DNA of 64,000 nt from assembly GCA_040880425.1 (NCBI GenBank), contig JBBDIL010000003.1:9225-73224 (forward strand), in the 5' to 3' direction. Below, in pieces: positions 18,592 through 55,425 of the stretch (the stretch's first letter is position 1; every line of letters begins with the position of its first letter). The DNA is from Burkholderiales bacterium (lineage in GTDB: Bacteria > Pseudomonadota > Gammaproteobacteria > Burkholderiales > Eutrophovitaceae). The notes beneath the pieces are model-generated. The model ran no database searches. It saw only the letters and a program-made list of their open reading frames with translations, and was not told the DNA's origin. Position numbers and translations under genes: made by a program.

Positions 18592-19698
18592 TCAGACGAT
18601 CTGCACAGCATGCTCGCCGATCTGACCACGCAGGGCGGGCTCTGTCGCCCGGACCGAAGCGGCTGCCGCGCGCAACTCGTGCATTGCCCAGATGACTGCG
18701 CTCAGCAGCAGCACTGCACCGCCTTGGTGTGCTACAGCCAGCGGAACCGGAACCACCAGCAGCAGCGTCGCGACGCCGAGTGCGATCTGTATTGCAAGCG
18801 CAGCCGCCAATGCATGCACCGCAATGCGTGCGCCGCGCGGCATGCCGACGCGCTGTGCGGTCAGCCAGAATCCCGCCACTAACGCCATCAGCAGCCAGGC
18901 AATCATGCGATGGGTGAATTGCACCGTCGTCATGTTGTTGAAGAAGTTCAGCCACGACGGATCGAGCATTAGCATCCCGGGTGGCAGGAAATGCCCGTTC
19001 ATCAGCGGAAACGTGTTGTAGGCATAGCCGGCGCGGATGCCCGCGACCAGCGCCCCGCTCAGCGCCATGACGAAGATCAGCACGGCGAGGCTACCCGCAT
19101 AACCCGAGAGTCTGAGCAGTGCGCCGCTGCCGGCGGCGCGTGCGGGCCGCAGCAAATCAAGCGCGACCCACAACATCCAGCCATAGATCACAAGTGCGAG
19201 CCCGAAATGCGCAGTCAGACGCAGATGACTGACGCGCGGATTGTCCACCAGACCGCTCTTGACCATGTACCAACCCATCGCACCCTGCAAGGCGCCCAGC
19301 ACGAAGATGCCGCCGAGCTGCCAGCGCAGCGCGCCGCGAATCTCGCCGCGTACGAGAAACCATACGAAGGGAACAAGGAAAGCCAGGCCGATCGCACGCC
19401 CGAGCAGCCGGTGGAAGTATTCCCACCAGAAAATGCCCTTGAACTCCGCCAGCGACATGCCCTTGTTCACCTGAAGATACTCGGGCGTCTGCCGGTACTT
19501 CTCGAAGAGAACATCCCAGTCGTTCTGGCTGAGCGGCGGAATGGTTCCAACGATCGGTTGCCATTCCACGATCGAAAGGCCGGATTGCGTAAGGCGAGTC
19601 GCACCGCCTACCACCACCATCGCGAATACCAGCAGGCAGCAGGCGAACAGCCAAATCATGACATTGCGCTGTGCGGCATCGGCAACATTCTCGCGCAT
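18592..19698 (-). CDS. ctaA: haem A synthase (COX15/CtaA, proteobacterial type)
   Basis: '[44 protein letters not shown]...[17 protein letters not shown]' canonical COX15 N-terminus. Confidence 0.85.
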
Positions 19699-19886: not shown

Positions 19887-20072
19887 ATGGCAAACGCTGA
19901 CGATACTTCCAATGCCGGTGAGGGAACGGAAAACACAGGTGAAAAGCTGCCTGTGATGCAGCAGTTGCTCGACAACCCGTTTCTCCTGTTGTTCATCGGT
20001 GTGACCATGCCGACGGTCTTTTACATCATCTGGGGTGTGATGGAGATCGTCACCATTCCGATCGCCCAATAG
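19887..20072 (+). CDS. small single-TM protein preceding oxidase subunit II (candidate subunit IIa-like component)
   Basis: 61 aa, acidic N-terminus then one TM (FLLLFIGVTMPTVFYIIWGVMEIV); GGAG upstream; 42 nt before subunit II. Confidence 0.5.
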   Translation: MANADDTSNAGEGTENTGEKLPVMQQLLDNPFLLLFIGVTMPTVFYIIWGVMEIVTIPIAQ

Positions 20073-20114: not shown

Positions 20115-20660
20115 ATGAGTGCAATACTGCCGCCGAGTACCAAGGCCTGGTGGAAGCAGCCGCTGGATCGCGTGGAAGGCACCTGGATAGCGATTGCCTT
20201 CATTTGGTGCCTGATCATGTTTTTCATGATGCCGTACTGGCATGTTTTCGGAAAACAGAATCTTTCCAACGAGGCCTACCGGGTCACGCCGGAGTACTTC
20301 AGCCAGAAGACGCAGGAAATGGTCGATCAGTACACAGTCCGCACCGAGACTGATCTCCAGACACCGGTGGTACGGCCGCCCGCGGGATCCGACGTTTATC
20401 TCATTGCCCGCCTCTGGTCCTGGTGGCCGATCCTTGAACTGGAGAAGGGGCAGAGCTATCGCCTGCATCTTTCTTCCATGGACTATGTCCACTCGTTCTC
20501 CCTGCAGCCGGAGAACATGAACATCCAGGTGTTTCCCGGCTACATGGGCGTCTACACGATCACGCCAACGCGGGCAGGTACCTATTCGATCGTGTGCAAC
20601 GAGTTCTGCGGCATCGGGCACCACACGATGGTGTCGAATCTTTACGTGGTCGAGAGATAA
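20115..20660 (+). CDS. haem-copper oxidase subunit II, single-TM CuA type (B-family-like)
   Basis: One N-terminal TM; CuA motif 'CNEFCGIGHHTM' with upstream His (YVHSFSL). Confidence 0.85.
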   Translation: MSAILPPSTKAWWKQPLDRVEGTWIAIAFIWCLIMFFMMPYWHVFGKQNLSNEAYRVTPEYFSQKTQEMVDQYTVRTETDLQTPVVRPPAGSDVYLIARLWSWWPILELEKGQSYRLHLSSMDYVHSFSLQPENMNIQVFPGYMGVYTITPTRAGTYSIVCNEFCGIGHHTMVSNLYVVER

Positions 20661-20673
20661 GGGAGACCGGGCA

Positions 20674-22386
20674 ATGAACAACGCTGCAAGTTACCGCATC
20701 TGTCCGGATACCGGATTGCAGTTTCACAAGTCCGCGGAACTGCTGATGAAGGCGAACGCCGTCGCAGGGGTGCTTGCGCTGCTTGTCGGTGGCATTCTTG
20801 CGCTGCTGGTAACGCTGACGCGCTGGCCCGCGGTGCGGCTGCTGCCCGCAGACCAGTTCTACCTGGTTCTGACTGCGCACGGCATCGACATGCTGATCTT
20901 CTGGATCATCTTCTTCGAGATGGCGGTCCTGTACTTCTGCTCGTCGACCCTGCTGCGCAGCCGGCTTGCCACCCCGCGCATCGCCTGGGCGGGATTCTCG
21001 CTGATGGTGATCGGCGCGATCGTCACCAACGTCGCGATCTTCCAGGGGGGATCGAGCGTGATGATGACCTCGTATGTACCGATGCCGGCAGCGCCGCATT
21101 TCTATCTCGGGCTGATCCTGTTTGCGGTCGGTGCGCTGATTGGATGCTTCGTGTTCCTCGGCACGCTGGTGGTCGCCCGCGCGGAACGCACGTACGAGGG
21201 CTCGGTACCGCTGGTGACCTTTGGCGCGCTCACCGCCGCGATCATCGCGATATTCACGATTGCGTCCGGCGCGATCATTTTGATCCCGACTTTTCTGTGG
21301 TCGGTTGGTTACATCAACCAGATTGATCCCCTGATGTACAAGACCGTGTGGTGGGCGTTCGGCCACTCTTCGCAGCAGATCAACGTTTCTGCGCACGTGG
21401 CGGTGTGGTACGCGATCGCGGCGATCGTATTCGGCGCCAAGCCCATGTCCGAGAAGGTGAGCCGCGGGGCGTTCCTGCTGTACATCCTTTTCCTGCAGCT
21501 GGCGAGCGCGCACCATCTGCTGGCCGATCCGGGCATCAGTTCCGAATGGAAGATATTCAATACCAGCTACGCCATGTATCTCGCGGTATTGGCGAGCATG
21601 GTGCACGGGCTGACCGTGCCGGGATCGATCGAAGTCGCCCAGCGGGAGAAAGGCCTGAACCGCGGTCTGTTCGAGTGGATCCGTAAAGCACCATGGGGAA
21701 ATCCGGTGTTCTCGGGGATGTTCATTTCACTCATCGGTTTCGGTTTTCTCGGCGGCATCTCCGGCGTGATGATGGGCACAGAGCAGCTCAACATCATCAT
21801 CCACAACACCATCTACGTGCCGGGGCATTTCCACGCGACCGTGGTGGTGGGCACCACGCTCGCCTTCATGGCGTTGACCTACTTTCTTATTCCGACGCTG
21901 TTCCGGCGGGAGATGATCATGCCCGGGCTGGCGAAGTGGCAGCCCTACCTGTTCGGAATCGGGATGTCGCTGTTCTCGCTGTTCATGATGGGCGCGGGCA
22001 CGCTCGGCGTCTCGCGCCGGCACTGGGACATGGCGTTCAGCGGCGCGCAAATGCCGTACGAGTATCCCGGCACCGCCTACCTGATGATGGGGTTGATGGC
22101 GCTGGCGGGTATCGCCGCCACCGTCGGTGGCGTGATCTACCTGCTGGTGACTGTCGGCTCGCTGCTCTGGGGCCGGAGGCTGGACGCGAAGGACACCTAT
22201 ACCGCGAAACTCGTGCCGCATCGACTGCCGCCGGTCGCAGCCGCGATCGAGGGCCATGGCGGCCTCGGCATCAAGGGGTTCGCCGCACCGGGTACGTTCG
22301 TATTCGCGATGGTGTTCCTTGCGGCGTTCGTCCTGTACTACTTCGTGAACTGGAAGTACCTGTCGGAAATCTGGTACATCGGGTGA
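20674..22386 (+). CDS. haem-copper oxidase subunit I, B-family-like but lacking the HPxVY cross-link tyrosine (possible NO reductase of the B-derived NOR clades)
   Basis: Collinear with ba3 subunit I as recalled (DPLMYKTVWWAFGH..., LASAHHLLADPGISSEWK, LFEWIRKAPWGNP, HNTIYVPGHFHATV); the ba3 'GHPIVY' position reads 'GHSSQQ'. Confidence 0.8.
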   Translation: MNNAASYRICPDTGLQFHKSAELLMKANAVAGVLALLVGGILALLVTLTRWPAVRLLPADQFYLVLTAHGIDMLIFWIIFFEMAVLYFCSSTLLRSRLATPRIAWAGFSLMVIGAIVTNVAIFQGGSSVMMTSYVPMPAAPHFYLGLILFAVGALIGCFVFLGTLVVARAERTYEGSVPLVTFGALTAAIIAIFTIASGAIILIPTFLWSVGYINQIDPLMYKTVWWAFGHSSQQINVSAHVAVWYAIAAIVFGAKPMSEKVSRGAFLLYILFLQLASAHHLLADPGISSEWKIFNTSYAMYLAVLASMVHGLTVPGSIEVAQREKGLNRGLFEWIRKAPWGNPVFSGMFISLIGFGFLGGISGVMMGTEQLNIIIHNTIYVPGHFHATVVVGTTLAFMALTYFLIPTLFRREMIMPGLAKWQPYLFGIGMSLFSLFMMGAGTLGVSRRHWDMAFSGAQMPYEYPGTAYLMMGLMALAGIAATVGGVIYLLVTVGSLLWGRRLDAKDTYTAKLVPHRLPPVAAAIEGHGGLGIKGFAAPGTFVFAMVFLAAFVLYYFVNWKYLSEIWYIG

Positions 22387-23320: not shown

Positions 23321-23403
23321 AGGTGCACGTTTCGGCCGCGGAAAATGCAGATTGAGGCGGGAGCAGGGTTTTCCCGCTCTCTGCGGTGCGAGTGTGGAAC
23401 GAA

Positions 23404-24309: not shown

Positions 24310-24323
24310 TTGATGCGCATCAA
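24310..24323. promoter_or_regulatory. FNR/Dnr-type box TTGATGCGCATCAA upstream of the cytochrome b fusion / HCO-like module
   Basis: Perfect palindrome; about 134 bp upstream of the proposed GTG 24451. Confidence 0.6.
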
Positions 24324-24450
24324 TGCACCTCCCGCGCCCCATGGAGGAGCATGCTTGGGTGAGCGTGCCGGTTTTCCCCGGTGCGCAGGACATCGGGGCG
24401 AGGATGACGGCGGCAACCATCGGGACCTGGCTTATCGTGCGGAGCGCGCG

Positions 24451-26325
24451 GTGATCGCGCCTCTGCAGCGCGGCGGGCAATGGCTGTTCATGCGCGTCGA
24501 GGGCGGATTCAATCTGTTCTTCGGGCAGGCGCTCAACCCGCTCTACCACCTGGGCGCAATCACCTTCCTGCTTTTCTGGATTGCGCTTGCGAGCGGTATC
24601 TATCTATACGTGTTCTTCGACACCAGCGTAACGGGGGCGTATGACTCGGTGGCGCGCCTGACGCACGGTCAGTGGTATCTGGGCGGCGTCATGCGCAGCC
24701 TGCATCGCTATGCATCCGACGGCATGGTCATCACCATGCTGTTGCACATGGTGCGGTATTTCGTTTTCGATCGTTACCGGAACTTCCGCTGGTTCTCCTG
24801 GGTGACCGGGGTGATTCTGCTTTGGCTGGTATACGCTTCCGGCATCAACGGCTACATGCTGCCGTGGGACCGTCTCGCCCAGTTCGTGGCGACCGCAACT
24901 GCGGAGTGGATCGACTGGTTCCCCATGTTCGCGGGCGCGCTTGCTCGCAACTTCAGCTTCGAGGGATCGGTGAACGACCGGCTCTTCTCTCTGCTGGCAT
25001 TCCTGCACATCGGTATCCCGCTCGGCCTGTTGATCGCAATGTGGGTGCACACCCAGCGCGTGCCCGGCGCCAGGAGCAGTCCGCCGCCGGCGATCGCGGC
25101 GATGACCGGCGTCGCGCTGCTGGTGCTCGCGGCGGTGAAGCCGGCGGTCAGCCAGGGGCGCGCGGATCTCTCCACCGCAGTCGCGGCGGTCGGGCTCGAC
25201 TGGTTCTACCTCCCACTCTATCCGTTGATCTACGCATGGTCGCCGCGCGATGTCTGGGCGCTGGCGCTGGGCGCAACCTTGCTGCTGTTCGCGATCCCCT
25301 GGCTTGGACGCCGGCGGCGCGAGCGGCTGGCGGAGTTCAAGGCGACTTTCCGTCCGGGCAATCTTTCTGCCCCGGTGCGTGCCGGAGAGACGCTGCTGGA
25401 AGCCGGACTGCGCCAGGGCATACCGCTGCCTTACGACTGCCGCAACGGCGGCTGCGGCGTGTGCAAGGCGGATCTGCTGCAGGGCGCCGTGGACTACGGC
25501 GTGTACCAGAAGACGGCGCTATCCGACGAGGAGAAGGAAGATGGCAGTCTGCTGCTGTGTTGCGCTACCCCGCTATCGGATGTGGACATCGAACTGGAGA
25601 CATCGCGCGAGCACACCGCCACGGTGGTGGACATGCAGCAGCTTGCGCCGGATGTCATGCTGCTCAGGCTAAGGCCCAACAGGCCGGTTTCGTACGTGGC
25701 AGGTCAGTACATCAACATCGTGCTGGAGAACGGCGATACCCGCAGCTTTTCCTTTGCGACCGCGCCTGGCGCGGGTGAACTGATCGAACTGCATGTGCGC
25801 CTGATTCCGGGCGGCAGGTTTACCACGCATGTCTTCACGCGCATGTGCGAAGGCGACCGGCTGCGTTTCCGCGGGCCGTTTGGCGCTTTCACGTTGCAGG
25901 AGGACAGTCCGAGACCGATTATCTTTGTGGCGGGCGCTACCGGATTTGCGCCGGTGAAGAGCATGCTCGAGTACGCGTTCGAGCATGGCATCCGCCGCCC
26001 CATGGTGCTGTACTGGGGTGTGCGCTCGCGTAAAGACCTGTACATGGCGGAAATGCCGGAGTGCTGGGCGCGCGAGCACCAGAATTTCAGCTTTGTGCCG
26101 GTGCTGTCCGAACCGCAGCCGGAAGATGAGTGGACCGGAAGGACCGGCATGGTGCACGAAGCAATACTCGAGGACTTCCCTACGTTGCAGGGCTACGAGC
26201 TGTACGCCTGCGGGTCGATGCAGATGGTGGAGTCCGCGCATCCGGAGTTCATCGCGCAGGGGCTGTCCGAGGATGCCTGTTTCTCCGATGCCTTCACCCA
26301 CGCAGCGCAGGGATCACCGGCATGA
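24451..26325 (+). CDS. fusion protein: di-haem cytochrome b (bc1/b6 N-terminal type) + plant-type [2Fe-2S] ferredoxin + FNR-like FAD/NAD(P)H reductase
   Basis: His pairs 14 residues apart in two helices (SLHRYASDGMVITMLLH; FLHIGIPLGLLIAMWVH), 'NGYMLPWD'; 'CRNGGCGVCK...LLCC'; 'RSFSFA', 'GPFG', 'GATGFAPVKSM'. Start moved to GTG 24451 (GGAG upstream; N-terminus aligns with the paralog; an FNR box sits at the track start 24310). Confidence 0.8.
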   Translation: MIAPLQRGGQWLFMRVEGGFNLFFGQALNPLYHLGAITFLLFWIALASGIYLYVFFDTSVTGAYDSVARLTHGQWYLGGVMRSLHRYASDGMVITMLLHMVRYFVFDRYRNFRWFSWVTGVILLWLVYASGINGYMLPWDRLAQFVATATAEWIDWFPMFAGALARNFSFEGSVNDRLFSLLAFLHIGIPLGLLIAMWVHTQRVPGARSSPPPAIAAMTGVALLVLAAVKPAVSQGRADLSTAVAAVGLDWFYLPLYPLIYAWSPRDVWALALGATLLLFAIPWLGRRRRERLAEFKATFRPGNLSAPVRAGETLLEAGLRQGIPLPYDCRNGGCGVCKADLLQGAVDYGVYQKTALSDEEKEDGSLLLCCATPLSDVDIELETSREHTATVVDMQQLAPDVMLLRLRPNRPVSYVAGQYINIVLENGDTRSFSFATAPGAGELIELHVRLIPGGRFTTHVFTRMCEGDRLRFRGPFGAFTLQEDSPRPIIFVAGATGFAPVKSMLEYAFEHGIRRPMVLYWGVRSRKDLYMAEMPECWAREHQNFSFVPVLSEPQPEDEWTGRTGMVHEAILEDFPTLQGYELYACGSMQMVESAHPEFIAQGLSEDACFSDAFTHAAQGSPA

Positions 26326-26873
26326 ACACGCGAGCCGCATCCAGCGTGACCGTGCGCTACATTGGCCAGGCGCTGCTGTATGGACTGTTTGTCACGGCCA
26401 TCGGCTATTTTTCGACTTCGCCGGAGTACACGCATCTTCGGCCGCGAGAGGCGCTGATGAAGGTCTCCTTCACGCATGCCGCACAGCGGGTCGGAGATTG
26501 CCGCATGCGCACCGATGAGGAACTCGCTCGCATGCCGCCGAACATGCGCATCCGTGAAGACTGCCCGCGCGAGCGCGCGCCGGTGACGATCGAGGTCGCT
26601 CTGGACGGACAGATGCACTTCCGCGAAGTGCTTAACCCGACCGGTTTGGCGCGCGACGGCGCGGCCTCCATGTACCGTCGCATCGTCGTCCCTGCCGGCG
26701 AGCACCATGTTGCGGCACGCCTGTCCGACCGGCGCGATGGCGCGTTCAATCATGCGAAAGAGCAGACCATTCTGCTTGCTCCGGCCGATATCCTGGTGAT
26801 TGAGTTCCATGCAACCGCCGGCGGTTTCGATTTCCTTTATCCGCTCAGGGAGGCGCAGCTTGATCGAGATTAA
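26322..26873 (+). CDS. hypothetical membrane-anchored protein (one N-terminal TM plus about 140-aa soluble domain)
   Basis: ATG 26322 overlaps the upstream stop (ATGA); TM 'IGQALLYGLFVTAIGYF'; no recognisable cofactor motif. Confidence 0.55.
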   Translation: MNTRAASSVTVRYIGQALLYGLFVTAIGYFSTSPEYTHLRPREALMKVSFTHAAQRVGDCRMRTDEELARMPPNMRIREDCPRERAPVTIEVALDGQMHFREVLNPTGLARDGAASMYRRIVVPAGEHHVAARLSDRRDGAFNHAKEQTILLAPADILVIEFHATAGGFDFLYPLREAQLDRD

Positions 26874-26930: not shown

Positions 26931-28451
26931 ATGCTCTCGGGCATCCGGGTCTCTTTGCTGCACGGCTGGCGCGCGCTCGAGACGACGTTCGATCGAGCGT
27001 TTGGCGCACGCGACAATCCGCTGCGCCACCTGGGCGCTCTGGGTTTCTACTTCTTCTGGGTAGCGGCGGCGAGCGGGATCTACCTGTATGTGTTTTTCGA
27101 TACCAGCGTCGCCGGTGCGTACCGCAGTGTGGAGGCGCTGAGGCACCAGCCGTGGCTGATCGGCAGCGTCGCGCGCAGCCTGCATCGCTATGCTTCCGAC
27201 GGCTTCGTGGCGGTGATGTTTCTCCATCTCGTGAAGGAAACGCTGGCCGCCCACTACCGCGGATTCCGTCTGTTCTCGTGGCTTACCGGTGTGCCGCTGA
27301 TCTGGCTGGTATACGTGTCCGGAATCGGTGGCTACTGGCTGGTATGGGACCGCGTTGCGCAGTTTTCCGCTGCCGCGACGATGGAATGGCTCGACTGGCT
27401 GCCGCTTTTCGGCGAACCGCTTGCGAGAAATTTTCTGCATGCCGGCAGCGTGAGCGACCGCTTTTTCTCGTTGCTTGTGTTCGTGCACATTGGCGTGCCG
27501 CTGCTGCTGCTGCTCGGCATGTGGGTGCATATCCAGCGCGTGAGCCTGGCCGACACCGCGCCGCCGCGCCGGTTGGGCTGGGGCGTGGCTGTCGCGCTGC
27601 TCGCGCTTTCACTGCTGAAACCGGCGCTCAGCGCGCCGCCCGCCCATCTCGATACCGAACCGGCGCGCGTCGCGCTCGACTGGTTCTATCTGTTCGTGCA
27701 TCCGCTGGCCTACCGGACATCCGCCGGGTTCGCCTGGGCGCTGGTGTTCGGTGCGACCCTGTTGCTCGCCGCCGCGCCGTTGTTGTCACGCGCGCGGCCC
27801 GAACCAGTGGCGAAAGTCGATCCGGAAAACTGCAACGGCTGCGGCCGCTGCGTGGCCGATTGTCCGTACGCCGCGGTACAGCTGGTGCCGCATTCGTTGA
27901 AAGGGAAGTACCGTATGCAGGCGCAGGTCGACCCGGACCTGTGCGCAGCCTGCGGCATCTGCGCCGGCGCCTGTCCGTCCTCGACACCGTTTCGCCGGAT
28001 GGAGACGCTGGTGAGCGGTATCGACATGCCTTTGCTGCCGATCGGCGTGTTACGGGGACGGCTCGATTCTGCGCTTTCCCGGCTCGTCAGCAGACCGCGC
28101 GTGGTGATTTTCGGCTGCGAATGCGCGGCGGACGTAAACACGCTTGCGGCGCCGGGCGTTGCAAGTTTCAGCCTGCCGTGTATCGGCAACCTGCCGCCTT
28201 CGTTTGTCGAGTACGCGCTGCGCAACGGCGCGGACCGCGTGCTGGTGACTGGCTGCCGCGAGGGCGACTGCGCGTACCGGTTCGGCAATCGGTGGATCGA
28301 GCAGCGATTCTCAGGGGAGCGCGAACCTCATTTGCGCCGGCATGTGGCGCGCGAGCGCGTGCGCATCGCCTGGGCGAACGCCGGCGACGAGGAACGGCTG
28401 CGTGCTCAACTGACGGAATTCTGCGAGCCCCGGGCGCGGCGTTTGTCGTGA
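26931..28451 (+). CDS. fusion protein: di-haem cytochrome b + 2x[4Fe-4S] ferredoxin + MvhD/FlpD-like domain
   Basis: Paralogous cyt b domain (SLHRYASDGFVAVMFLH; FVHIGVPLLLLLGMWVH; GGYWLVWD); 'CNGCGRCVADCP' and 'CAACGICAGACP'; 'VVIFGCECAAD...LPCIGNLPPSFVEYALRNGADRVLVTGCREGDCAYRFGNRW' FlpD/MvhD pattern; alternative GTG start 26916. Confidence 0.8.
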   Translation: MLSGIRVSLLHGWRALETTFDRAFGARDNPLRHLGALGFYFFWVAAASGIYLYVFFDTSVAGAYRSVEALRHQPWLIGSVARSLHRYASDGFVAVMFLHLVKETLAAHYRGFRLFSWLTGVPLIWLVYVSGIGGYWLVWDRVAQFSAAATMEWLDWLPLFGEPLARNFLHAGSVSDRFFSLLVFVHIGVPLLLLLGMWVHIQRVSLADTAPPRRLGWGVAVALLALSLLKPALSAPPAHLDTEPARVALDWFYLFVHPLAYRTSAGFAWALVFGATLLLAAAPLLSRARPEPVAKVDPENCNGCGRCVADCPYAAVQLVPHSLKGKYRMQAQVDPDLCAACGICAGACPSSTPFRRMETLVSGIDMPLLPIGVLRGRLDSALSRLVSRPRVVIFGCECAADVNTLAAPGVASFSLPCIGNLPPSFVEYALRNGADRVLVTGCREGDCAYRFGNRWIEQRFSGEREPHLRRHVARERVRIAWANAGDEERLRAQLTEFCEPRARRLS

Positions 28452-28467: not shown

Positions 28468-29904
28468 ATGAGATCAGGCGGTCAGGTTAACGGCACCGCA
28501 GGAACTTTCGGCCACCGTCTCGTGCTGCCGGCCCTGCCGCAGGTGCTCTATACGCTTGATGTGCCGCGGGATGCGCGCGCACGGCTGGCGCTGAACTGGA
28601 TCGTTCTCGGTCTGGTAGCGTTGATCGGAGCAGGCGTGTTTTCGGCCCTGCTGGTGGCATCGCGCACCCCCTTCGTGCAGAGCGTGTTTCCGCTGGTGGA
28701 CTTCTTCCGGGTTGCGCTGGTGGTGCATGTGGACCTTTCCGTGCTGGTCTGGTTTCTGGCGTTTGCCGGCGCGCTTTGGAGTCTGAACAGTACCCGGCGC
28801 TGGATGCCGCTGGGCTGGACTGCGCTTGCCGCCTGCGCCCTTGCCACACTGATGATGGTGATCGCACCGTTTGTCGGTCAGCCGGTGCCCATCATGAGCA
28901 ACTACATCCCGGTGCTCGACAGCCCGCTGTTTCGATGGTCACTGGTGGTGTTCGCCGCAGGGGTGGCGGCGGTTCTGCTGCGCGGCATGGGCGCGGTCCC
29001 CAAGGTGGGTGCGCAACTGGACGGAGCCGGCGTGCTGCGTTTCGGGCTGAACGCCGCGGCGATTTCAGCGGCGGTTGCGCTGGGCGCGTTCATCTGGTCC
29101 TGGCTCGCAGTGCCGCCGGCGCTCGACGGCAAGGCCTACTACGAATTGCTGTTCTGGGGCGGCGGCCACGTGCTGCAGTTCACCTGGACGCTGCTCATGT
29201 TCGCCGCATGGCTGTGGCTCGCCGGCGAAGGCGGTTGCCCGATTCCGCTCACGCCCCGCGTGACACTGCTGCTGTTCGCCATCACGCTCGCAATCGTGTT
29301 TCTGACTCCGGTGATCTATCTTGCGCACGACGTTACTTCAGTCGAGCATCACAAGCTGTTCACCTGGCAGATGCGCTTCGGCGGCGGGCTGACAATCCTG
29401 CCGATGGCGCTCGCGGTGGTGATTGCGCTGGCGCGCGCCGCGCCGGCCCGTGCCGAGGAGAAACCGCTGCGTGCGGCGCTGATCATGTCGCTCGCTCTGT
29501 TCGCCTTTGGAGGCCTGATCGGTGTGGGCATCGACGGCTCGAATGTGAAAGTCCCGGCGCATTATCACGGCAGCATCGTCGGCGTAACACTCGCGTTCAT
29601 GGGCGTGGTCTATCTCCTGCTGCCGCGCCTGGGGTTTGCGTCCCCGCCTTCGCGCGCTGCCGCACTGCAATGCTGGCTCTACGGTGCGGGGCAGATGCTG
29701 CATATCACCGGGCTGGTGTGGTCCGGCGGCTACGGCGTGCAGCGCAAGGTCGCAGGAGCGGAGCAAGGCCTGGATGCGATCGAGAAGATTGCGGGCATGG
29801 CACTGATGGGTTTCGGCGGCCTCGTCGCCGTGATCGGAGGACTGATGTTCCTGGTGATCGTGCTGCGCGTGCTGGCGCGCGGACGTACGGGTGCGCCACG
29901 GTAG
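28468..29904 (+). CDS. orphan haem-copper-oxidase subunit I-like protein (12-TM core, no cognate subunit II)
   Basis: All six canonical HCO His present: H87 (VVHVD), H234 (GGGHVLQF), H294/H295 (VEHHK), H365/H367 (VPAHYHGSIVGVTLAF, compare VPGHFHATVVVGTTLAF in the 570-aa subunit I); Phe, not Tyr, at His234+4; GGGGGAG SD. Confidence 0.7.
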   Translation: MRSGGQVNGTAGTFGHRLVLPALPQVLYTLDVPRDARARLALNWIVLGLVALIGAGVFSALLVASRTPFVQSVFPLVDFFRVALVVHVDLSVLVWFLAFAGALWSLNSTRRWMPLGWTALAACALATLMMVIAPFVGQPVPIMSNYIPVLDSPLFRWSLVVFAAGVAAVLLRGMGAVPKVGAQLDGAGVLRFGLNAAAISAAVALGAFIWSWLAVPPALDGKAYYELLFWGGGHVLQFTWTLLMFAAWLWLAGEGGCPIPLTPRVTLLLFAITLAIVFLTPVIYLAHDVTSVEHHKLFTWQMRFGGGLTILPMALAVVIALARAAPARAEEKPLRAALIMSLALFAFGGLIGVGIDGSNVKVPAHYHGSIVGVTLAFMGVVYLLLPRLGFASPPSRAAALQCWLYGAGQMLHITGLVWSGGYGVQRKVAGAEQGLDAIEKIAGMALMGFGGLVAVIGGLMFLVIVLRVLARGRTGAPR

Positions 29905-29928: not shown

Positions 29929-30369
29929 ATGACGACGAACCCGGATCTCCCTCTGGTGTATTCCTGCTCTGGATACTCGAGCGCGGCGCAGATGGCGAAC
30001 TACCTCGCGCTCCGGCTGGATCGTATCGGTGCGGCGGAAATGTCGTGCATCGCGGGCGTGGGCGGCGCCGTGCCGCATCTGGTCCGGATCGCACGATCCG
30101 GACGACCGATCGTGGCGATCGACGGTTGCCAGCTGGTGTGCACGGCGAGCTGCCTCGGTCGGCAAGGCCTGCAGCCGGTACTGCACCGCGTCCTGTCCGA
30201 CCACGGTGTGCGCAAGCGCTATCACACCGAATTCGACGAGCGGGAAGCGCAGCGCCTGCTGTCGGAACTGCTGCCGGCGGTCGAACACGCGCGCCGCGGC
30301 GCACGGGAATTGCCGGCGCTCCCCGGCGGCGCGGGCGCAGACGGCGGCGCACCGGGCGGGCATCGGTGA
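29929..30369 (+). CDS. DGC-domain putative metal-binding protein
   Basis: 'VYSCSGYSSAAQ...', 'AIDGCQLVC' DGC motif; GTGA overlap with ubiU. Confidence 0.6.
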   Translation: MTTNPDLPLVYSCSGYSSAAQMANYLALRLDRIGAAEMSCIAGVGGAVPHLVRIARSGRPIVAIDGCQLVCTASCLGRQGLQPVLHRVLSDHGVRKRYHTEFDEREAQRLLSELLPAVEHARRGARELPALPGGAGADGGAPGGHR

Positions 30370-31379
30370 GCGGGCGCGCGCCCATCGAACTGGTCTGCCC
30401 CGCCGGCAGCCTGGCCGCGCTCAAGGCCGCGGTCGACGCCGGTGCCGACTGCGTGTATCTCGGTTTTCGCGACGACACGAACGCGCGCAACTTCAAGGGT
30501 CTGAACCTGGACGCGGCGGATCTTGCGGACGGATTGCGCTACGCGCACGCGCGCGGCCGGCGCGTGTTCGTGGCGATCAACACCTATGCGCAGGCGGGCG
30601 CCTTCGAGCGCTGGTGCCAGGCAGTCGACCGGGCGGCGCAGCTCGGTGCCGATGCGGTGATTCTGGCCGACCCTGCGCTGCTGCAGTACGCCGCTTCGGC
30701 ACAACCGGATCTGCGCCGGCACCTGTCGGTGCAGGGTTCGGCCACCACGTACGAGGCGATCAACTTCTACCGCAGACAGTTCGGCGTGTGCCGCGCTGTG
30801 CTGCCACGTGTGCTGGCGCTGCCGCAGATCGAGAAGCTGATGCAGCATGCCGAAACGGAGATCGAGGTGTTCGGCTTCGGCAGCCTGTGCGTGATGGTGG
30901 AAGGCCGCTGCGCGCTGTCGTCCTACGTCACCGGGCAGTCGCCGAATACGGCAGGCGCGTGTTCCCCGGCTGGCGCGGTACGCTGGCAGCAGACGCCGCG
31001 GGGCCTGGAATCGCGGCTCTCGGATGTGCTGATCAACTGCTATGCCGACGGCGAAAAGGCCGCGTATCCGACGCTGTGCAAGGGGCGCTATCGCGTCGAC
31101 GACGACGTCTACTACGCGATCGAGGAGCCGGCCAGCCTGAACACGCTCGCGCTGCTGCCGGAATTGCTGCGCATCGGCGTCTCGGCGATCAAGATCGAAG
31201 GCCGCCAGCGCAGCGTGGCCTATGTGGCGGAAGTCACGCGTACCTGGCGCGCGGCGATCGACGTTTGTGCCGCCGATCCCGCACGTTTCGCGCCGCGCGG
31301 CGCCTGGATGTCGCAGCTCGACCGGCTGGCCGAGGGCCAGCAGCACACGCTCGGTGCGTACCACCGGCCATGGCGGTGA
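30366..31379 (+). CDS. ubiU: U32-family protein UbiU (O2-independent ubiquinone hydroxylation)
   Basis: 'IELVCPAGSLAALKAAVDAGADCVYLGFRDDTNARNF' peptidase-U32 N-terminus, Cys cluster (CVMVEGRCALSS...C); followed by ubiV and an SCP2 gene; start set at GTG 30366. Confidence 0.75.
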   Translation: MSGRAPIELVCPAGSLAALKAAVDAGADCVYLGFRDDTNARNFKGLNLDAADLADGLRYAHARGRRVFVAINTYAQAGAFERWCQAVDRAAQLGADAVILADPALLQYAASAQPDLRRHLSVQGSATTYEAINFYRRQFGVCRAVLPRVLALPQIEKLMQHAETEIEVFGFGSLCVMVEGRCALSSYVTGQSPNTAGACSPAGAVRWQQTPRGLESRLSDVLINCYADGEKAAYPTLCKGRYRVDDDVYYAIEEPASLNTLALLPELLRIGVSAIKIEGRQRSVAYVAEVTRTWRAAIDVCAADPARFAPRGAWMSQLDRLAEGQQHTLGAYHRPWR

Positions 31380-31383
31380 CGCG

Positions 31384-32286
31384 GTGAAACTCGCGCTCGG
31401 ACCGCTGCTGTACTACTGGCCCCGCGACGCGGTGTTCGCTTTCTACGAGCGTGTCTCCCGGGCGCCGGTGGACATCGTCTATCTCGGTGAAGTCGTCTGC
31501 TCGCGTCGGCGCGAGCTGCGCATGCAGGACTTGATGGAGATTGCGGACGGACTGGCGCGTGCCGGCAAACAGGTGGTGCTTTCCACGCTGGCCCTGCCCG
31601 AGACCGACGCCGACCTGCGCCAGGTAAAGAAGGTGTGCGACAACAGCCGCCACGTGGTCGAGGCGAACGACATGGCGGCGGTCCACATGCTTTCACGCGC
31701 CGGGACCGCATTCGTCTCGGGACCGCACGTCAACGTCTACAACGGGCCCACCCTCAGGCTGCTGAGCGGACTCGGAGCCGAGCGCTGGGTCATGCCGCTG
31801 GAGCTGGCGTCGGACGCGCTCGCGGCGATCCTGCGCGACCGGCCGGAAGGCATGGAAACCGAGGTGTTCGTGCTCGGACGCATGCCGCTTGCGTTCTCGG
31901 CGCGATGCTTCACCGCACGCCATTACGATCGCGCCAAGGACGACTGCGGTTTCATGTGCCGGGATCACCCGGACGGTCTCGCTTTGCAGACACGCGAGCG
32001 TTCGCCCTTCCTCGTATTGAACGGCATCCAGACCCAGTCGTGGCGCGTGTACAACCTCGCGCGCGAACTACCGGCGCTCGCCGCAGCCGGTGTGGACGTG
32101 GTGCGCATCAGCCCGCAGTCAGTCGATACCATCGAGTTGCTGGAATGCGTGCGTGCGATGCTCGACCGGAATCCGGTGCCGGAGGGGCAGCTCGCGCATC
32201 TGGACGCATTGCTGCCGGCGGAAAGCTGTAACGGTTACTGGCACGGGCTGCCCGGCATGACGCGTGCGCCGGCAGAACCGGCATGA
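31384..32286 (+). CDS. ubiV: U32-family protein UbiV
   Basis: 'KLALGPLLYYWPRDAVFAFYERV...VDIVYLGEVVCSRRRE' YhbV-like; partner of ubiU; start set at GTG 31384. Confidence 0.75.
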   Translation: MKLALGPLLYYWPRDAVFAFYERVSRAPVDIVYLGEVVCSRRRELRMQDLMEIADGLARAGKQVVLSTLALPETDADLRQVKKVCDNSRHVVEANDMAAVHMLSRAGTAFVSGPHVNVYNGPTLRLLSGLGAERWVMPLELASDALAAILRDRPEGMETEVFVLGRMPLAFSARCFTARHYDRAKDDCGFMCRDHPDGLALQTRERSPFLVLNGIQTQSWRVYNLARELPALAAAGVDVVRISPQSVDTIELLECVRAMLDRNPVPEGQLAHLDALLPAESCNGYWHGLPGMTRAPAEPA

Positions 32287-32777
32287 GTTTCTTCCCGCTG
32301 CCGTTTCCATCGTCTCTCGTCGACGCACGGGCGATGATCTCTTCGCTTGCCGGCCTGCCGGGTTCGCTGGCGCTCGTGACTGCATTGAACGTCGCCTTCG
32401 AGAGATTTCCGGAGGGACTCGATTCTCTGGAGGGTAAGCGCGTGTGCATGCATACGACCGATCTGGGATTGCGCGCCTATCTCACACTCCGCGGCCAGGC
32501 GTTCGTGGTCTGCCACCCGGTATCGGATCCGGATGTCCTGATCCGGGCAAGTGCGGCGGACTTTTTTCGACTCGCGAGCCGAAAAGCGGACGCCGACACG
32601 CTGTTCTTCGCGCGTCGCCTGCTGATCGAAGGCGACACCGAGGCAGGACTCCTGCTGAAGAATGCGCTGGATGCGCTTGACCTGGCCCGGCTGCTGCACA
32701 ATCCGCCTGCTCTGCATCGGCTTCTGGCGGTGCTCCGCGCAAGCTTCCGCGGTCCGGCTGTCAAACCCTGGAGCTAA
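32283..32777 (+). CDS. ubiT: SCP2 domain protein UbiT (ubiquinone biosynthesis accessory factor)
   Basis: SCP2 sterol-carrier pattern ('IRASAADFFRLASRKADADTLFFARRLLIEGDTEAGLLLKNALD'); ATGA overlap with ubiV. Confidence 0.7.
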   Translation: MSFFPLPFPSSLVDARAMISSLAGLPGSLALVTALNVAFERFPEGLDSLEGKRVCMHTTDLGLRAYLTLRGQAFVVCHPVSDPDVLIRASAADFFRLASRKADADTLFFARRLLIEGDTEAGLLLKNALDALDLARLLHNPPALHRLLAVLRASFRGPAVKPWS

Positions 32778-51926: not shown

Positions 51927-51930
51927 GTGG

Positions 51931-55413: not shown

Positions 55414-55425
55414 CGCGCGTGCTCC

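What the first reader, a model, noticed from the sequence alone, without database searches (positions are those of the whole stretch)
26931..28451. Paralogous cytochrome b fused to 2x[4Fe-4S] and an MvhD/FlpD-like domain
This is a second copy of the same cyt b domain, with motif-level identity to the first (DTSV.GAY, SLHRYASDG, GY.L.WD). It carries two CxxCxxCxxxCP clusters and a domain with the FlpD/MvhD Cys pattern (FGCEC...LPCIG...GCREGDCAY..GN). MvhD-type domains are known as electron connectors between hydrogenase/formate dehydrogenase and heterodisulfide reductase. Fusion to a membrane cytochrome b in a denitrifier is unexpected. It suggests a second, different cytoplasmic electron input or output to the same membrane module.
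Basis: partly seen in the sequence, partly recalled or inferred. Interest (0 to 1): 0.7.

Follow-up and report, generated by a model that had tools for sequence, protein, structure and literature searches.

The report
Cytochrome b–FeS–MvhD protein beside eNOR
The gene is real: a membrane cytochrome b fused to cytoplasmic iron-sulfur domains, from a widespread but untested family that sits beside an unusual nitric oxide reductase, so it probably carries electrons across the membrane between the cell's NAD(P)H and quinone pools and that enzyme.

Summary
Window 26931-28451 (+) encodes a 506-aa protein (MEX0957768.1, named 'hydrogenase iron-sulfur subunit'). It has a six-helix, two-haem cytochrome b of the bc1/b6f family, then 2x[4Fe-4S], then an MvhD/FlpD domain with four invariant Cys. 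The Fe-S half is cytoplasmic.

The fusion is not an artefact. Thousands of database proteins share the architecture, in Burkholderiales, Rhodocyclales, Gallionellaceae and more distant lineages. No hydrogenase or Hdr genes lie nearby.

The gene always sits beside an eNOR-type NO reductase operon (subunits II and I, CtaB, Sco1). It usually also has:
- the cyt b/Fer2/FNR paralogue;
- a 183-aa periplasmic anchor protein, which some lineages fuse to this protein;
- a divergent haem-copper-oxidase homologue that lacks two CuB histidines.

A distant lineage replaces the FNR arm with a separate NuoF-like NADH flavoprotein between two MvhD-armed cyt b genes. FNR/Dnr-type boxes precede the genes.

Best reading: a Rieske-less cyt b acts as a transmembrane haem wire between a Qo-type pocket or haem-copper partner and an NAD(P)H-linked cytoplasmic Fe-S chain. 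The direction of electron flow is unresolved.

A 2026 preprint already notes the gene pair in Ferrigenium. No member has been characterised.

The parts
26931..28451 (+). Target gene: cytochrome b + 2x[4Fe-4S] + MvhD/FlpD fusion. 506 aa from the ATG at 26931, or 511 aa from an alternative GTG at 26916. Identical to MEX0957768.1.
   Evidence: ORF list. Pfam and NCBIfam matches. Exact-sequence look-up. Independent gene call on an identical contig.
27018..27785 (+). Membrane domain: six TM helices A-F of a bc1/b6f-type cytochrome b. Invariant haem ligands are H90 (27183), H104 (27225), H191 (27486) and H205 (27528).
   Evidence: Alignment A1 invariants. AF2 model. Foldseek matches bc1 cyt b over about 290 columns. 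Loop charges follow the positive-inside rule.
27675..27689 (+). 'LDWFY' in the loop between helices E and F, equivalent to the PEWY motif of the Qo site. D255 and W256 are invariant.
   Evidence: The motif xDW[FYIL] is present in every target-type and FNR-type paralogue examined, including distant lineages. The general motif P[E/D]W[F/Y] is described in PMC5600118.
27807..27989 (+). Cytoplasmic 2x[4Fe-4S] ferredoxin domain. The ligands C306/309/312/316 and C343/346/349/353 are all invariant.
   Evidence: Resembles the C-terminal ferredoxin domain of HdrA.
28098..28427 (+). MvhD/FlpD-type domain with four invariant Cys (C401, C422, C447, C452). A [2Fe-2S] cluster is presumed.
   Evidence: Pfam FlpD E 2.5e-17. 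Alignments to MvhD chains of known structure. Invariants.
26860..26873 (+). FNR/Dnr-type box with one mismatch (TTGATCGAGATTAA), centred about 64 bp upstream of the ATG at 26931.
   Evidence: 9 boxes in the window against 0.89 expected. Boxes lie upstream of target homologues in 7 of 38 related loci.
26322..26873 (+). 183-aa protein with an N-terminal TM helix and a soluble domain carrying invariant C60 and C81. It matches no known family. It is a partner of the target, because some lineages fuse it to the target's C-terminus, which places its soluble domain in the periplasm.
   Evidence: Synteny. No Pfam match. Fusion proteins P0259 and P0333 match it at E 3e-34 and 2e-19. Conserved residues.
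24451..26325 (+). Paralogue: cytochrome b + [2Fe-2S] Fer2 + FAD + NAD(P)-binding domain (624 aa by the gene call). This is the kind of protein called the 'novel quinol reductase' in Accumulibacter.
   Evidence: PMC4930944.
24310..24323 (+). Perfect FNR/Dnr-type box (TTGATGCGCATCAA), about 135 bp upstream of the paralogue's start codon.
28468..29904 (+). 478-aa divergent member of the haem-copper oxidase superfamily. Both haem ligand sets and one CuB His are kept (H87, H234, H365, H367), and H412 is also invariant. The helix-7 His-His pair is missing.
   Evidence: Pfam COX1 E 9e-11. hhalign probability 99.6% against the eNOR subunit I family. Invariants. AF2 pLDDT 85, with ba3 oxidase as the best fold match.
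20115..22386 (+). eNOR-type NO reductase. Subunit II (20115-20660) has a CuA motif. Subunit I (20674-22386) has GHSSQQ, where Gln replaces the cross-linked Tyr.
   Evidence: The diagnostic Gln is described in PMC8756737. The family is described in PMC11214002.
22391..24219 (+). Haem O synthase (CtaB/UbiA family, 22391-23320) and the Sco1/SenC copper chaperone (23386-24219).
18592..19698 (-). Haem A synthase CtaA, transcribed divergently from the eNOR operon. A perfect FNR box lies in the shared intergenic region at 19781-19794.
29992..32777 (+). Downstream genes: a DGC-domain protein (29992-30369), two U32-peptidase genes (UbiU/UbiV-like) and an SCP2 gene (UbiT-like). Together these resemble the O2-independent ubiquinone hydroxylation set.
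   Evidence: Pfam DGC. Gene call. Homologous genes carry Peptidase_U32 and SCP2 annotations in L038.

Best explanation
The protein is not a hydrogenase subunit. It is the Fe-S/MvhD-armed subunit of a Rieske-less membrane module built on a bc1/b6f-type cytochrome b, and that module is genetically tied to the eNOR-type nitric oxide reductase.

Shown:
- Six TM helices and four invariant His, enough for two b haems stacked across the membrane.
- A conserved Qo-type motif (xDW[F/Y]) on the periplasmic side.
- No Rieske gene in the cluster and no CxGG haem-cn motif.
- Immediately after helix F, on the cytoplasmic side, a 2x[4Fe-4S] ferredoxin domain and an MvhD-type domain with four invariant Cys.
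- Constant linkage to the eNOR II/I-CtaB-Sco1 genes.
- A TM-anchored periplasmic protein that some lineages fuse to it.
- FNR/Dnr-type boxes in front of the genes.

Inferred:
- The haem pair is a transmembrane wire. It connects the periplasmic-side pocket (quinone) and/or the adjacent haem-copper proteins (eNOR, the 478-aa homologue) to the cytoplasmic Fe-S chain.
- The terminal MvhD [2Fe-2S] domain is the docking point for an NAD(P)H-binding flavoprotein. Here that is the Fer2-FAD-NAD arm of the paralogous cyt b, with which it probably forms a heterodimeric cyt b core like the cyt b dimer of bc complexes. In a distant lineage the partner is a separate NuoF-like protein.
- The net effect is to couple the NAD(P)(H) pool to the quinone pool and to NO reduction under anoxic, NO-generating conditions.

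Direction: I favour electron input, but only slightly. The path would be NAD(P)H -> flavin -> [2Fe-2S] -> [4Fe-4S]x2 -> cytoplasmic-side haem -> periplasmic-side haem -> acceptor. Conditional on the conduit reading, I put this at about 0.4, against about 0.3 for the reverse, bifurcating direction.
For: - Domain content and invariant ligands.
- Topology, with the Fe-S half cytoplasmic.
- The fusion is widespread.
- Linkage to eNOR/CtaB/Sco1 holds in about 40 loci and in three divergent lineages.
- Natural fusions of this protein to the 183-aa protein.
- Two independent routes to the same composition. In Betaproteobacteria the FNR-armed cyt b is a clade nested within the MvhD-armed ones. In locus L042 (GC 40%) an independent duplication gave two MvhD-armed cyt b genes flanking a NuoF-like NADH flavoprotein. 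Both arrangements include the 478-aa homologue.
- The FNR arm is most similar to NAD(P)H-oxidising reductases (Fre, BenC, MmoC).
- FNR boxes are enriched in the window, 9 against 0.89 expected. They precede ctaA/eNOR, the paralogue, the target, nrdD and nirS. A CRP/FNR regulator is encoded in the window.
- The Ferrigenium orthologues are reported in the proteome of culture KS under denitrifying Fe(II) oxidation.
Against: - No biochemical data exist for any family member.
- The cofactors are inferred from ligand conservation only.
- The heterodimer and the MvhD-flavoprotein docking rest on gene content, not on a structure. I could not obtain model coordinates or run a multimer prediction.
- In 'minimal' loci (L043, L045, L017) the MvhD-armed cyt b occurs with eNOR but with no NAD(P)H module or 478-aa homologue nearby. 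The cytoplasmic partner there is unknown.
- If the periplasmic-side pocket reduces ubiquinone with NAD(P)H electrons, the reaction dissipates membrane potential (my own energetic reasoning). That is an odd design. If electrons instead bypass quinone, the invariant Qo-type motif is unexplained.
- FNR boxes are found upstream of homologues in only a minority of related loci.
Confidence: 0.45

Rival explanations
1. Reverse, bifurcating operation. Quinol is oxidised at the Qo-type pocket. One electron goes to a very high-potential sink (eNOR or the 478-aa haem-copper homologue, ultimately NO). The other is driven through the two b haems and the Fe-S/MvhD chain into the cytoplasm to reduce NAD(P)+ or a ferredoxin. 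This would be a Q-cycle-like quinol:NAD(P)+ oxidoreductase paid for by NO reduction.
For: - It explains why a bc-type cyt b with an invariant Qo motif is kept.
- It explains the loss of Qi features and the constant pairing with a haem-copper enzyme.
- The TM-anchored periplasmic partner is placed like a Rieske protein.
- The system occurs in lithoautotrophs that need reverse electron flow, such as Gallionella, Ferrigenium and Thiogranum.
- The same direction was proposed for the paralogue in Accumulibacter (PMC4930944) and for the pair in Ferrigenium.
- Rieske/cyt b complexes with NAD(P)-binding oxidoreductase subunits exist in anammox bacteria (PMC5600118).
Against: - With ubiquinone, reducing NAD(P)+ against the membrane potential needs a first acceptor operating above roughly +600 mV (my own estimate). 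CuA and Rieske-type centres sit near +250 to +300 mV.
- The 183-aa protein has no recognisable redox-cofactor motif. Only two Cys and one His are conserved.
- The FNR arm belongs to a class known to oxidise NAD(P)H.
- No such bifurcation onto a haem-copper enzyme has been demonstrated.
Confidence: 0.25
2. A cofactor-maturation role. The cyt b fusions supply electrons to haem A synthase (CtaA), or otherwise enable haem A/As synthesis and insertion for eNOR when O2 is scarce.
For: - CtaA and CtaB genes flank or follow the cluster in most loci. In L043 the target+small fusion is followed, after one small gene on the opposite strand, by ctaA.
- eNOR uses a modified haem A in both sites, and CtaA is O2-dependent (PMC11214002).
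- The puzzle of haem A synthesis under anoxia is raised explicitly in the Ferrigenium preprint.
- O2-independent ubiquinone genes (UbiU/V/T-like) sit in the same cluster.
- From general knowledge: yeast Cox15 needs a [2Fe-2S] ferredoxin and a ferredoxin reductase, which are the same domain types as the paralogue's arm.
Against: - A transmembrane two-haem wire with a conserved Qo-type pocket is not needed to feed CtaA.
- Many organisms make haem A without these genes.
- The window itself has a DGC-domain gene, not ctaA, after the 478-aa gene.
- There is no direct evidence.
Confidence: 0.1
3. A stand-alone quinone-pool oxidoreductase (cytoplasmic donor or acceptor <-> quinone) that is merely co-located with eNOR as part of an anaerobic gene island and has no functional tie to NO reduction.
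For: - The neighbourhood is a patchwork of anaerobic functions (UbiU/V/T-like genes, nrdD, nirS) under FNR-type boxes.
- The Accumulibacter literature treats the paralogue as a redox-balancing quinol reductase.
Against: - Linkage to eNOR II/I-CtaB-Sco1 persists across lineages with 35-65% identity and GC content from 40 to 67%, while other neighbours change.
- The genes are separated by short gaps or overlap within the eNOR gene string.
Confidence: 0.1
4. The database annotation is right: an iron-sulfur (MvhD-like) subunit of a hydrogenase or heterodisulfide-reductase system.
For: - The NCBI name is 'hydrogenase iron-sulfur subunit'.
- There are FlpD and HdrA2-like matches.
Against: - No hydrogenase, formate dehydrogenase or Hdr genes appear among the window ORFs scanned or in about 45 related loci.
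- The HdrA2 score is 89.6 bits against a cut-off of 1100, and the VhuD score is 32 against 215.
- The match covers only the Fd+MvhD tail.
Confidence: 0.03

Closest known systems
Cytochrome b of bc1 / b6f complexes (PF00033; e.g. PDB 2yiu_A, 6rqf_I)
   Same: - The fold matches helices A-F (Foldseek, about 290 aligned columns).
- There are four His ligands on helices B and D for two haems.
- The end of helix C carries the GY.L.W motif.
- A PEWY-type motif (xDW[F/Y]) sits in the ef loop.
- The N-terminus is on the cytoplasmic side.
   Different: - There is no Rieske or cytochrome c1/f partner in the cluster.
- Helices G and H are absent.
- There is no CxGG haem-cn motif. The region where Qi would lie is followed by a fused Fe-S domain.
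- Sequence identity is only about 19-25%.
- The closest named cyt b by sequence is ExtP/ExtQ of a selenite/tellurite-reduction operon (NCBIfam).
MvhD subunit of the Mvh-Hdr complex, and the Fd-MvhD tail of HdrA2 (PDB 5odc_D, 9sw2_D; NF040770)
   Same: - The order 2x[4Fe-4S] ferredoxin domain then MvhD domain is that of the HdrA2 C-terminus (residues 571-766 of 777).
- Three of the four invariant Cys align with Cys of MvhD chains of known structure (MCSG, GGC, GDCHY..GN).
   Different: - There is no HdrA flavin or thioredoxin-reductase domain, and no hydrogenase or HdrBC.
- The tail is fused to a membrane cytochrome.
- It occurs in denitrifying proteobacteria rather than methanogens or sulfate reducers.
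- The N-terminal CxxC of MvhD is reduced to one invariant Cys.
QmoABC and FlxABCD-HdrABC of sulfate reducers (general knowledge; Qmo paper PMC3333476 was listed but not read)
   Same: A membrane cyt b and Fe-S proteins with an MvhD-like domain link the quinone pool or NADH to cytoplasmic redox partners. Flx combines an FNR-like NADH module with Fe-S and MvhD-like subunits, the same domain set as the two paralogues here taken together.
   Different: - The Qmo cyt b is of the NarI/HdrE type, not the bc type.
- Those systems contain HdrA-like flavoproteins and serve sulfate or heterodisulfide reduction.
- Here everything is fused to bc-type cyt b and linked to a haem-copper NO reductase.
The 'novel cytochrome b/b6 quinol reductase' of Ca. 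Accumulibacter (Garcia-Martin 2006, cited in PMC4930944), and the Ferrigenium straubiae genes IMG 2878407319 / 2878407323 (bioRxiv 10.64898/2026.01.22.701106)
   Same: - By domain description, the upstream paralogue here (24451-26325) is the same kind of protein as the Accumulibacter one and as 2878407319.
- By gene order, the target corresponds to 2878407323 ('cytochrome b and [Fe-S] cluster domain') in the same eNOR operon arrangement seen in the Gallionella loci L020-L024.
   Different: - Those reports give only hypotheses: quinol -> NAD(P)+, or a supercomplex coupling NO reduction to NAD+ reduction.
- They do not identify the MvhD domain, the fused periplasmic partner, the CuB-less haem-copper homologue or the NuoF variant.
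- Orthology to the Accumulibacter protein was not checked by sequence here.
Two-haem membrane anchors of redox loops and transmembrane electron shuttles (NarI/NarH, two-haem succinate:quinone reductases, NOX/Fre-MsrQ; general knowledge)
   Same: Two stacked b haems carry electrons across the membrane between a periplasmic-side site and cytoplasmic Fe-S or flavin domains.
   Different: The folds are unrelated. None uses a bc-type cyt b with a Qo-type pocket or an MvhD domain.
[quoted passage not shown]
   Same: A bc-type cyt b is combined with cytoplasmic NAD(P)/Fe-S modules. Subfamily H is described as multidomain cyt b proteins of unknown function.
   Different: The anammox complexes keep a Rieske protein and use separate subunits. 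Whether the present family is subfamily H could not be checked, because no accession list was read.

Membership tests
Cytochrome b of bc1/b6f-type complexes | Four-helix bundle with two His on helix B and two on helix D that ligate two b haems | tested here: met
   H90, H104, H191 and H205 are invariant in 38 sequences. Pfam Cytochrome_B E 1.4e-14. Cyt b6 E 5e-14. Fold match to bc1 cyt b.
Cytochrome b of bc1/b6f-type complexes | Qo-site P[E/D]W[F/Y] motif in the ef loop or subunit IV | tested here: met
   The variant xDW[F/Y/I/L] is present, with D255 and W256 invariant. The Pro is not conserved.
Cytochrome b of bc1/b6f-type complexes | Operates with a Rieske iron-sulfur protein and a c-type cytochrome | tested here: not met
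   No Rieske or c1/f gene lies in the cluster in the window or in about 40 related loci. A Rieske/cyt b pair lies next to the cluster only in L042, as a separate complex.
Cytochrome b of bc1/b6f-type complexes | Quinone-reducing Qi site (helices A, D, E and the linker), or haem cn bound by CxGG | tested here: inconclusive
   The CxGG position reads HLGA, so there is no Cys. Helices G and H are absent, and the Fe-S domain starts about 15 residues after helix F. No test of quinone binding is possible with these tools.
MvhD / FlpD (PF02662) | Profile match above the curated threshold | tested here: met
   63.5 bits against a cut-off of 22.3, E 2.5e-17. All listed homologues carry PF02662.
MvhD / FlpD (PF02662) | Conserved Cys set for one [2Fe-2S] cluster | tested here: met
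   C401, C422, C447 and C452 are invariant. Three of them align with Cys of MvhD chains of known structure. That they actually bind a cluster is an inference.
MvhD / FlpD (PF02662) | Works with HdrA and a [NiFe] hydrogenase or formate dehydrogenase | tested here: not met
   No such genes appear among the window ORFs scanned or in the related loci.
HdrA2 (NF040770) / VhuD (NF045873) | Whole-protein score above the NCBIfam cut-off | tested here: not met
   89.6 bits against 1100 for HdrA2, and 32.2 against 215 for VhuD. Only the Fd+MvhD tail matches.
2x[4Fe-4S] bacterial-type ferredoxin domain | Two CxxCxxCxxxCP motifs | tested here: met
   C306-C316 and C343-C353 are all invariant. Multiple Fer4 profiles match.
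   Window subunit I has GHSSQQ. The related loci L042 and L043 have GH[AS]SQQ. Synteny tables.
Cytochrome b 'subfamily H' (Dibrova et al.) | Placement in that clade of the published cyt b tree | not tested
   Only the sentence describing subfamily H was read. No accession list or tree was available.

The most novel reading that the evidence does not exclude
The target, its FNR-armed paralogue, the 183-aa periplasmic anchor protein and the CuB-less 478-aa haem-copper homologue form a previously uncharacterised respiratory complex that docks on eNOR.

It would be a Rieske-less derivative of the bc complex in which Qo-type quinol oxidation is bifurcated. One electron goes to a haem-copper NO-reducing sink. 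The other goes through a low-potential haem/Fe-S/flavin chain that reduces NAD(P)+ in the cytoplasm. Reverse electron transport would then be paid for directly by NO reduction rather than by proton-motive force.

A second unexcluded variant is that the same set lets haem A be made for eNOR without external O2.
Probability: 0.2. Interest if true: 0.85.

Novelty: new variant of a known kind. Interest (0 to 1): 0.6.

Why it matters
The family is abundant in organisms that matter for wastewater phosphorus removal (Accumulibacter relatives), for iron- and sulfur-driven denitrification (Gallionellaceae, Thiogranum) and in soil and groundwater Burkholderiales. It is tied to eNOR, a recently recognised and common NO reductase that controls N2O formation.

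If the module links NAD(P)H and quinone to NO reduction, it would change three things:
- how electron budgets and energy yield of denitrification are modelled in these organisms;
- how the long-standing 'novel cytochrome b/b6' of Accumulibacter is explained;
- what is known about MvhD domains and bc-type cytochrome b, since this would be the first MvhD-type connector working outside Hdr and hydrogenase chemistry, and the first bc-type cyt b working without a Rieske protein.

Tried and rejected
- The GTDB genome scan did not contain the source genome; the best match was 65% identical. The source was identified instead by exact protein look-up as a Burkholderiales MAG.
- Literature searches for the Accumulibacter 'cytochrome b/b6' fusion found only one secondary mention. 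The original 2006 paper is not in the library, so its content is cited from memory and from PMC4930944.
- A paper hit for 'fusion protein' with Accumulibacter (PMC8239418) was irrelevant.
- No supplements were held for the eNOR paper.
- The 183-aa protein matches no Pfam family even at E <= 10. It is not a degenerate cupredoxin subunit II: hhalign against the COX2 family gives probability 0.1%. It lacks Rieske cluster motifs, by inspection.
- The 478-aa protein has no significant PDB sequence match, so profile and fold comparisons were used instead.
- AF2 coordinates are not exposed to scripts. Haem-to-cluster and Cys-to-Cys distances could not be measured, and no multimer prediction was possible. 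The membrane part of the target model has only moderate confidence (pLDDT 55-80).
- FNR boxes were tested in relatives. They are enriched upstream of the target (7 of 38) and the paralogue (6 of 27), but absent in most loci. Regulation is therefore supported for this window, not proven for the family.
- The 'assembly artefact' and 'periplasmic Fe-S domain' readings were considered and rejected.
- The 'hydrogenase subunit' reading was rejected on gene context and sub-threshold scores.


Full report
**1. What is there**

The finding's coordinates (26931-28451, +) coincide with an independent gene call for the identical protein on another contig (506 aa). The protein is MEX0957768.1 from a Burkholderiales MAG and is named 'hydrogenase iron-sulfur subunit'. 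An upstream GTG at 26916 would give 511 aa. Residue numbers below use that frame.

Pfam finds three domain types:
- Cytochrome_B, residues 39-206, E 1.4e-14.
- Two 4Fe-4S motifs, residues 298-356, E about 1e-11.
- FlpD/MvhD, residues 412-504, E 2.5e-17, 63.5 bits against a cut-off of 22.3.

The best NCBIfam matches are sub-threshold. One is the C-terminal Fd+MvhD tail of HdrA2 (residues 571-766 of 777). The other is the b-type cytochrome ExtP. PDB sequence search returns cytochrome b6 (5e-14), MvhD chains 9sw2_D and 5odc_D, and the C-terminal ferredoxin domain of HdrA.

**2. Anatomy and conservation**

I aligned 38 homologues with 54-79% identity to the window protein. The invariant residues are:
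- H90 and H104 on helix B, and H191 and H205 on helix D. These are the four ligands for two b haems.
- All eight Cys of the two CxxCxxCxxxCP motifs.
- Four Cys in the MvhD domain: C401, C422, C447 and C452. The second Cys of 'FGCEC' (C403) is not conserved.
- D255-W256 within 'LDWFY'. This lies in the loop between helices E and F, where bc complexes carry the Qo-site motif P[E/D]W[F/Y] (PMC5600118). The motif xDW[FYIL] is present in every paralogue I examined, including distant lineages.

An AlphaFold2 model (mean pLDDT 74; the Fe-S half 85-95) shows six TM helices plus a short helix in the E-F loop. Foldseek aligns the membrane half to full-length bc1 cytochrome b over about 290 columns. The protein therefore has helices A-F and lacks G and H.

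Across the family, the loops predicted to be cytoplasmic by homology are net positive (+1.8 to +2.5). The periplasmic loops are net negative (-1.5 to -3.0). The Fe-S/MvhD half starts about 15 residues after helix F and is cytoplasmic. The CxGG haem-cn position reads HLGA.

**3. The fusion is real and common**

The protein search returned 6662 proteins at E <= 1e-3 among the 8000 candidates scored; that count can include matches to a single domain. The best 120 all carry PF00033 + Fer4 + PF02662 and are 495-558 aa long. Thirty-four loci were recovered from GTDB genomes: Burkholderiales, Casimicrobiaceae, Rhodoferax, Ramlibacter, Rhodocyclales, Gallionella and one alphaproteobacterial MAG.

**4. 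Gene context**

In about 40 loci the gene lies in a conserved string:
- a COX2-like gene of 181 aa;
- a COX1-like gene of about 570 aa;
- CtaB/UbiA;
- Sco1;
- the cyt b + Fer2 + FAD + NAD paralogue;
- a gene of about 170-183 aa with no family assignment;
- the target;
- sometimes a second copy of the small gene;
- a divergent COX1-like gene of about 478 aa;
- often CtaA.

The order permutes between loci, but the set persists.

The 570-aa protein is a homologue of ba3 oxidase (E 6e-48). It has GHSSQQ where ba3 has GHPIVY. Gln therefore replaces the cross-linked Tyr, which is the diagnostic of eNOR (PMC8756737). eNOR is a proven NO reductase that uses a modified haem A, and its operons often hold ctaA (PMC11214002). 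No hydrogenase, formate dehydrogenase or Hdr gene occurs in any of these neighbourhoods. The NCBI name is misleading.

The window also holds:
- ctaA (18592-19698, minus strand);
- nirS with haem d1 biosynthesis genes;
- nrdD;
- UbiU/V/T-like genes;
- a CRP/FNR-family regulator.

**5. Partners**

(a) The 183-aa protein (26322-26873) has an N-terminal TM helix and a soluble domain with invariant C60 and C81 and a nearly invariant H128. It matches no Pfam family.

I searched 1.84 billion cluster representatives with the Fd+MvhD half of the target. This revealed a class of 650-720-aa proteins. They are cyt b + Fer4 + FlpD plus a C-terminal extension homologous to the 183-aa protein. BLASTP gives E 3e-34 for P0259 and 2e-19 for P0333.

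This natural fusion indicates a physical partnership. The TM helix follows a cytoplasmic domain, so the soluble domain must be periplasmic. A TM anchor plus a periplasmic head is the topology of a Rieske protein. However, the protein has no Rieske motifs, and hhalign against the CuA subunit family gives probability 0.1%.

(b) The 478-aa protein is a true but highly divergent member of the haem-copper superfamily:
- hhalign probability is 99.6% against the eNOR subunit I family.
- The AF2 model has pLDDT 85, and ba3 oxidase is the best fold match.
- There is no significant PDB sequence match.
- It keeps the ligands of both haems and one CuB His (H87, H234, H365, H367). H412 is also invariant.
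- The helix-7 His-His pair aligns to P-V-I-Y and is not conserved.

(c) The membrane domains of the target and its paralogue are 55% identical. The FNR-armed cyt b sequences form a clade nested within the MvhD-armed ones. The paralogue therefore arose by duplication, with the cytoplasmic arm swapped.

**6. A natural experiment in a distant lineage**

Locus L042 (GC 40%; proteins 34-54% identical to those of the window) reads as follows:
- a multicopper protein;
- COX2;
- eNOR subunit I (GHASQQ);
- cyt b + Fd + MvhD + small domain (704 aa);
- a NuoF-like flavoprotein (Complex1_51K, SLBB, NADH_4Fe-4S; 431 aa);
- a second cyt b + Fd + MvhD + small domain (706 aa);
- rhodanese;
- a homologue of the 478-aa protein;
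- CtaB;
- Sco1.

The two cyt b copies are 47% identical to each other and come from an independent duplication. The same composition has therefore arisen twice: two cyt b paralogues, one NAD(P)H-binding flavoprotein, the periplasmic domain and the CuB-less haem-copper homologue, all beside eNOR. Only the way the flavoprotein is attached differs.

This is the strongest clue that the MvhD domain docks on an NAD(P)H flavoprotein. It also suggests that the two cyt b proteins form a heterodimeric core, as cyt b dimerises in bc complexes.

'Minimal' loci also exist (L043, L045, L017). They contain eNOR II/I-CtaB-Sco1 plus a single MvhD-armed cyt b, with the small protein fused or adjacent. No flavoprotein or 478-aa homologue is nearby. 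The constant association is therefore with eNOR.

**7. Regulation**

TTGAT-N4-ATCAA boxes with at most one mismatch occur 9 times in the window, against 0.89 expected. None of 100 shuffles reached 9. Their positions are:
- Perfect boxes at 19781 (the ctaA/eNOR divergent region) and at 24310 (about 135 bp upstream of the paralogue's called start).
- One-mismatch boxes at 26860 (about 64 bp upstream of the target ATG), at 37554 (upstream of nrdD) and at 57234 (upstream of nirS).

In related loci, boxes lie within 250 bp upstream of the target in 7 of 38 cases and of the paralogue in 6 of 27. About 0.03 would be expected per such interval. This fits expression under anoxic or NO-generating conditions.

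The Ferrigenium preprint reports that eNOR and both cyt b fusions were in the proteome of culture KS under denitrifying Fe(II) oxidation.

**8. Mechanism**

Shown: the domain set, ligand conservation, topology, gene linkage and natural fusions.

Inferred: cofactor occupancy, the heterodimer, the docking of MvhD on a flavoprotein, and the direction of electron flow.

The architecture is a transmembrane two-haem wire. It has a Qo-type pocket on the periplasmic side. On the cytoplasmic side, a chain of [4Fe-4S]x2 and an MvhD [2Fe-2S] takes the place of Qi.

The following is my own energetic reasoning, not a tool result:
- A simple NAD(P)H -> ubiquinone reaction at a periplasmic-side site would dissipate membrane potential.
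- A simple ubiquinol -> NAD(P)+ reaction would be uphill both in redox terms and against the membrane potential.
- So there are two options. Electrons may flow outward to the haem-copper partners. This would be NAD(P)H-fed NO reduction, analogous in logic to NOX/Fre-MsrQ or flavohaemoglobin. Or the Qo-type site may bifurcate, with NO reduction as the high-potential branch and the haem/Fe-S/flavin chain as the low-potential branch.
- Bifurcation needs a first acceptor above roughly +600 mV.

The outward direction is slightly favoured because the FNR arm belongs to the NAD(P)H-oxidising class of Fre, BenC and MmoC and because the model needs no unprecedented chemistry.

The bifurcating direction explains more of the anatomy: the invariant Qo motif, the Rieske-like placement of the periplasmic partner, and the occurrence in lithoautotrophs. 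It is also the direction proposed in the literature.

A role in haem A synthesis or insertion for eNOR remains possible, given the recurrent ctaA/ctaB adjacency and the unsolved question of haem A synthesis under anoxia.

**9. Comparison with what is known**

The protein works like a membrane anchor with an Fe-S wire, as in NarI/NarH, QmoC/QmoB and two-haem succinate:quinone reductases. But it is built from a bc-type cyt b and an HdrA2-type Fd-MvhD tail.

It fails membership of the functional bc1/b6f complex because it has no Rieske or c-type partner. It fails membership of Mvh/Hdr because there is no HdrA or hydrogenase and the scores are far below threshold.

Three reports touch on it:
[quoted passage not shown] I could not verify that this family is subfamily H.
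- The paralogue type has been discussed since 2006 as Accumulibacter's 'novel quinol reductase'.
- A 2026 preprint describes the gene pair in the Ferrigenium eNOR operon and proposes a supercomplex coupling NO reduction to NAD+ reduction.

None of these identifies the MvhD domain, the fused periplasmic partner, the missing CuB histidines of the 478-aa protein or the NuoF variant.

**10. Verdict**

The finding is a real, well-conserved and currently misannotated protein. It is a new variant of known kinds of membrane redox module. It has been noticed before but never characterised. Its main value lies in the conserved eNOR-linked gene set it belongs to.

Interest is 0.6. The most novel reading not excluded is a Rieske-less, bc-derived complex that couples quinol oxidation and NO reduction to NAD(P)+ reduction. 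I give that a probability of about 0.2, and it would be of high interest if true.

Noticed in passing
window 28468-29904 (+): The 478-aa haem-copper-oxidase homologue keeps both haem ligand sets and one CuB His, but it lacks the helix-7 His-His pair. That pair is otherwise nearly universal in the superfamily. H412 and Y284 are invariant or nearly so. [quoted passage not shown] It may be an undescribed haem-copper family.
   Followed up: partly
window 26322-26873 (+); proteins P0259, P0264, P0333: A 183-aa TM-anchored protein with no family assignment is fused to the C-terminus of the cyt b-Fd-MvhD protein in some lineages (650-720-aa proteins). This places its Cys/Cys/His-bearing domain in the periplasm, topologically like a Rieske protein.
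   Followed up: yes
locus L042, 4617-10121: A distant lineage (GC 40%) has two cyt b-Fd-MvhD-small fusions flanking a NuoF-like NADH flavoprotein. They sit between eNOR and a homologue of the 478-aa protein. A Rieske/cyt b complex with a GltD/HdrA-like Fe-S flavoprotein lies immediately downstream.
   Followed up: partly
window 19781, 24310, 26860, 37554, 42882, 48127, 57234, 59538, 17544: FNR/Dnr-type boxes (TTGAT-N4-ATCAA) are about ten-fold enriched in the window. They sit in front of ctaA/eNOR, both cyt b fusions, nrdD and nirS. A CRP/FNR-family regulator is encoded at 58827-59519.
   Followed up: partly
window 24310-24450: The mechanical ORF for the FNR-armed paralogue starts at a TTG inside a perfect FNR box. 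The real start is most likely the one at 24451, as called on an identical contig. NCBI's 656-aa model is probably too long.
   Followed up: partly
window 29992-32777 (+): A DGC-domain protein is followed by UbiU/UbiV-like (U32 peptidase) and UbiT-like (SCP2) genes directly downstream of the cluster. In other genomes the same three Ubi-like genes sit inside the cluster, between Sco1 and the FNR-armed cyt b (L038).
   Followed up: partly
window 15382-16809 (-) and 17043-17984 (-): A 475-aa membrane protein has only a faint NnrS-like match (E 0.24). A 313-aa protein with a hemerythrin domain lies upstream of ctaA. A hemerythrin gene also follows the target homologue in L045.
   Followed up: no
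window 19887-20072 (+): A 61-aa ORF encoding a small membrane protein precedes eNOR subunit II. Small genes of about 53-61 aa are called in the same position in L035, L038 and L042.
   Followed up: no
window 50050-58722: A nirS cluster is present: nirS, a second cd1-like gene (nirF/nirN type), NirD/L/G/H-like siroheme decarboxylase genes, a radical-SAM gene (nirJ-like) and cysG.
   Followed up: no
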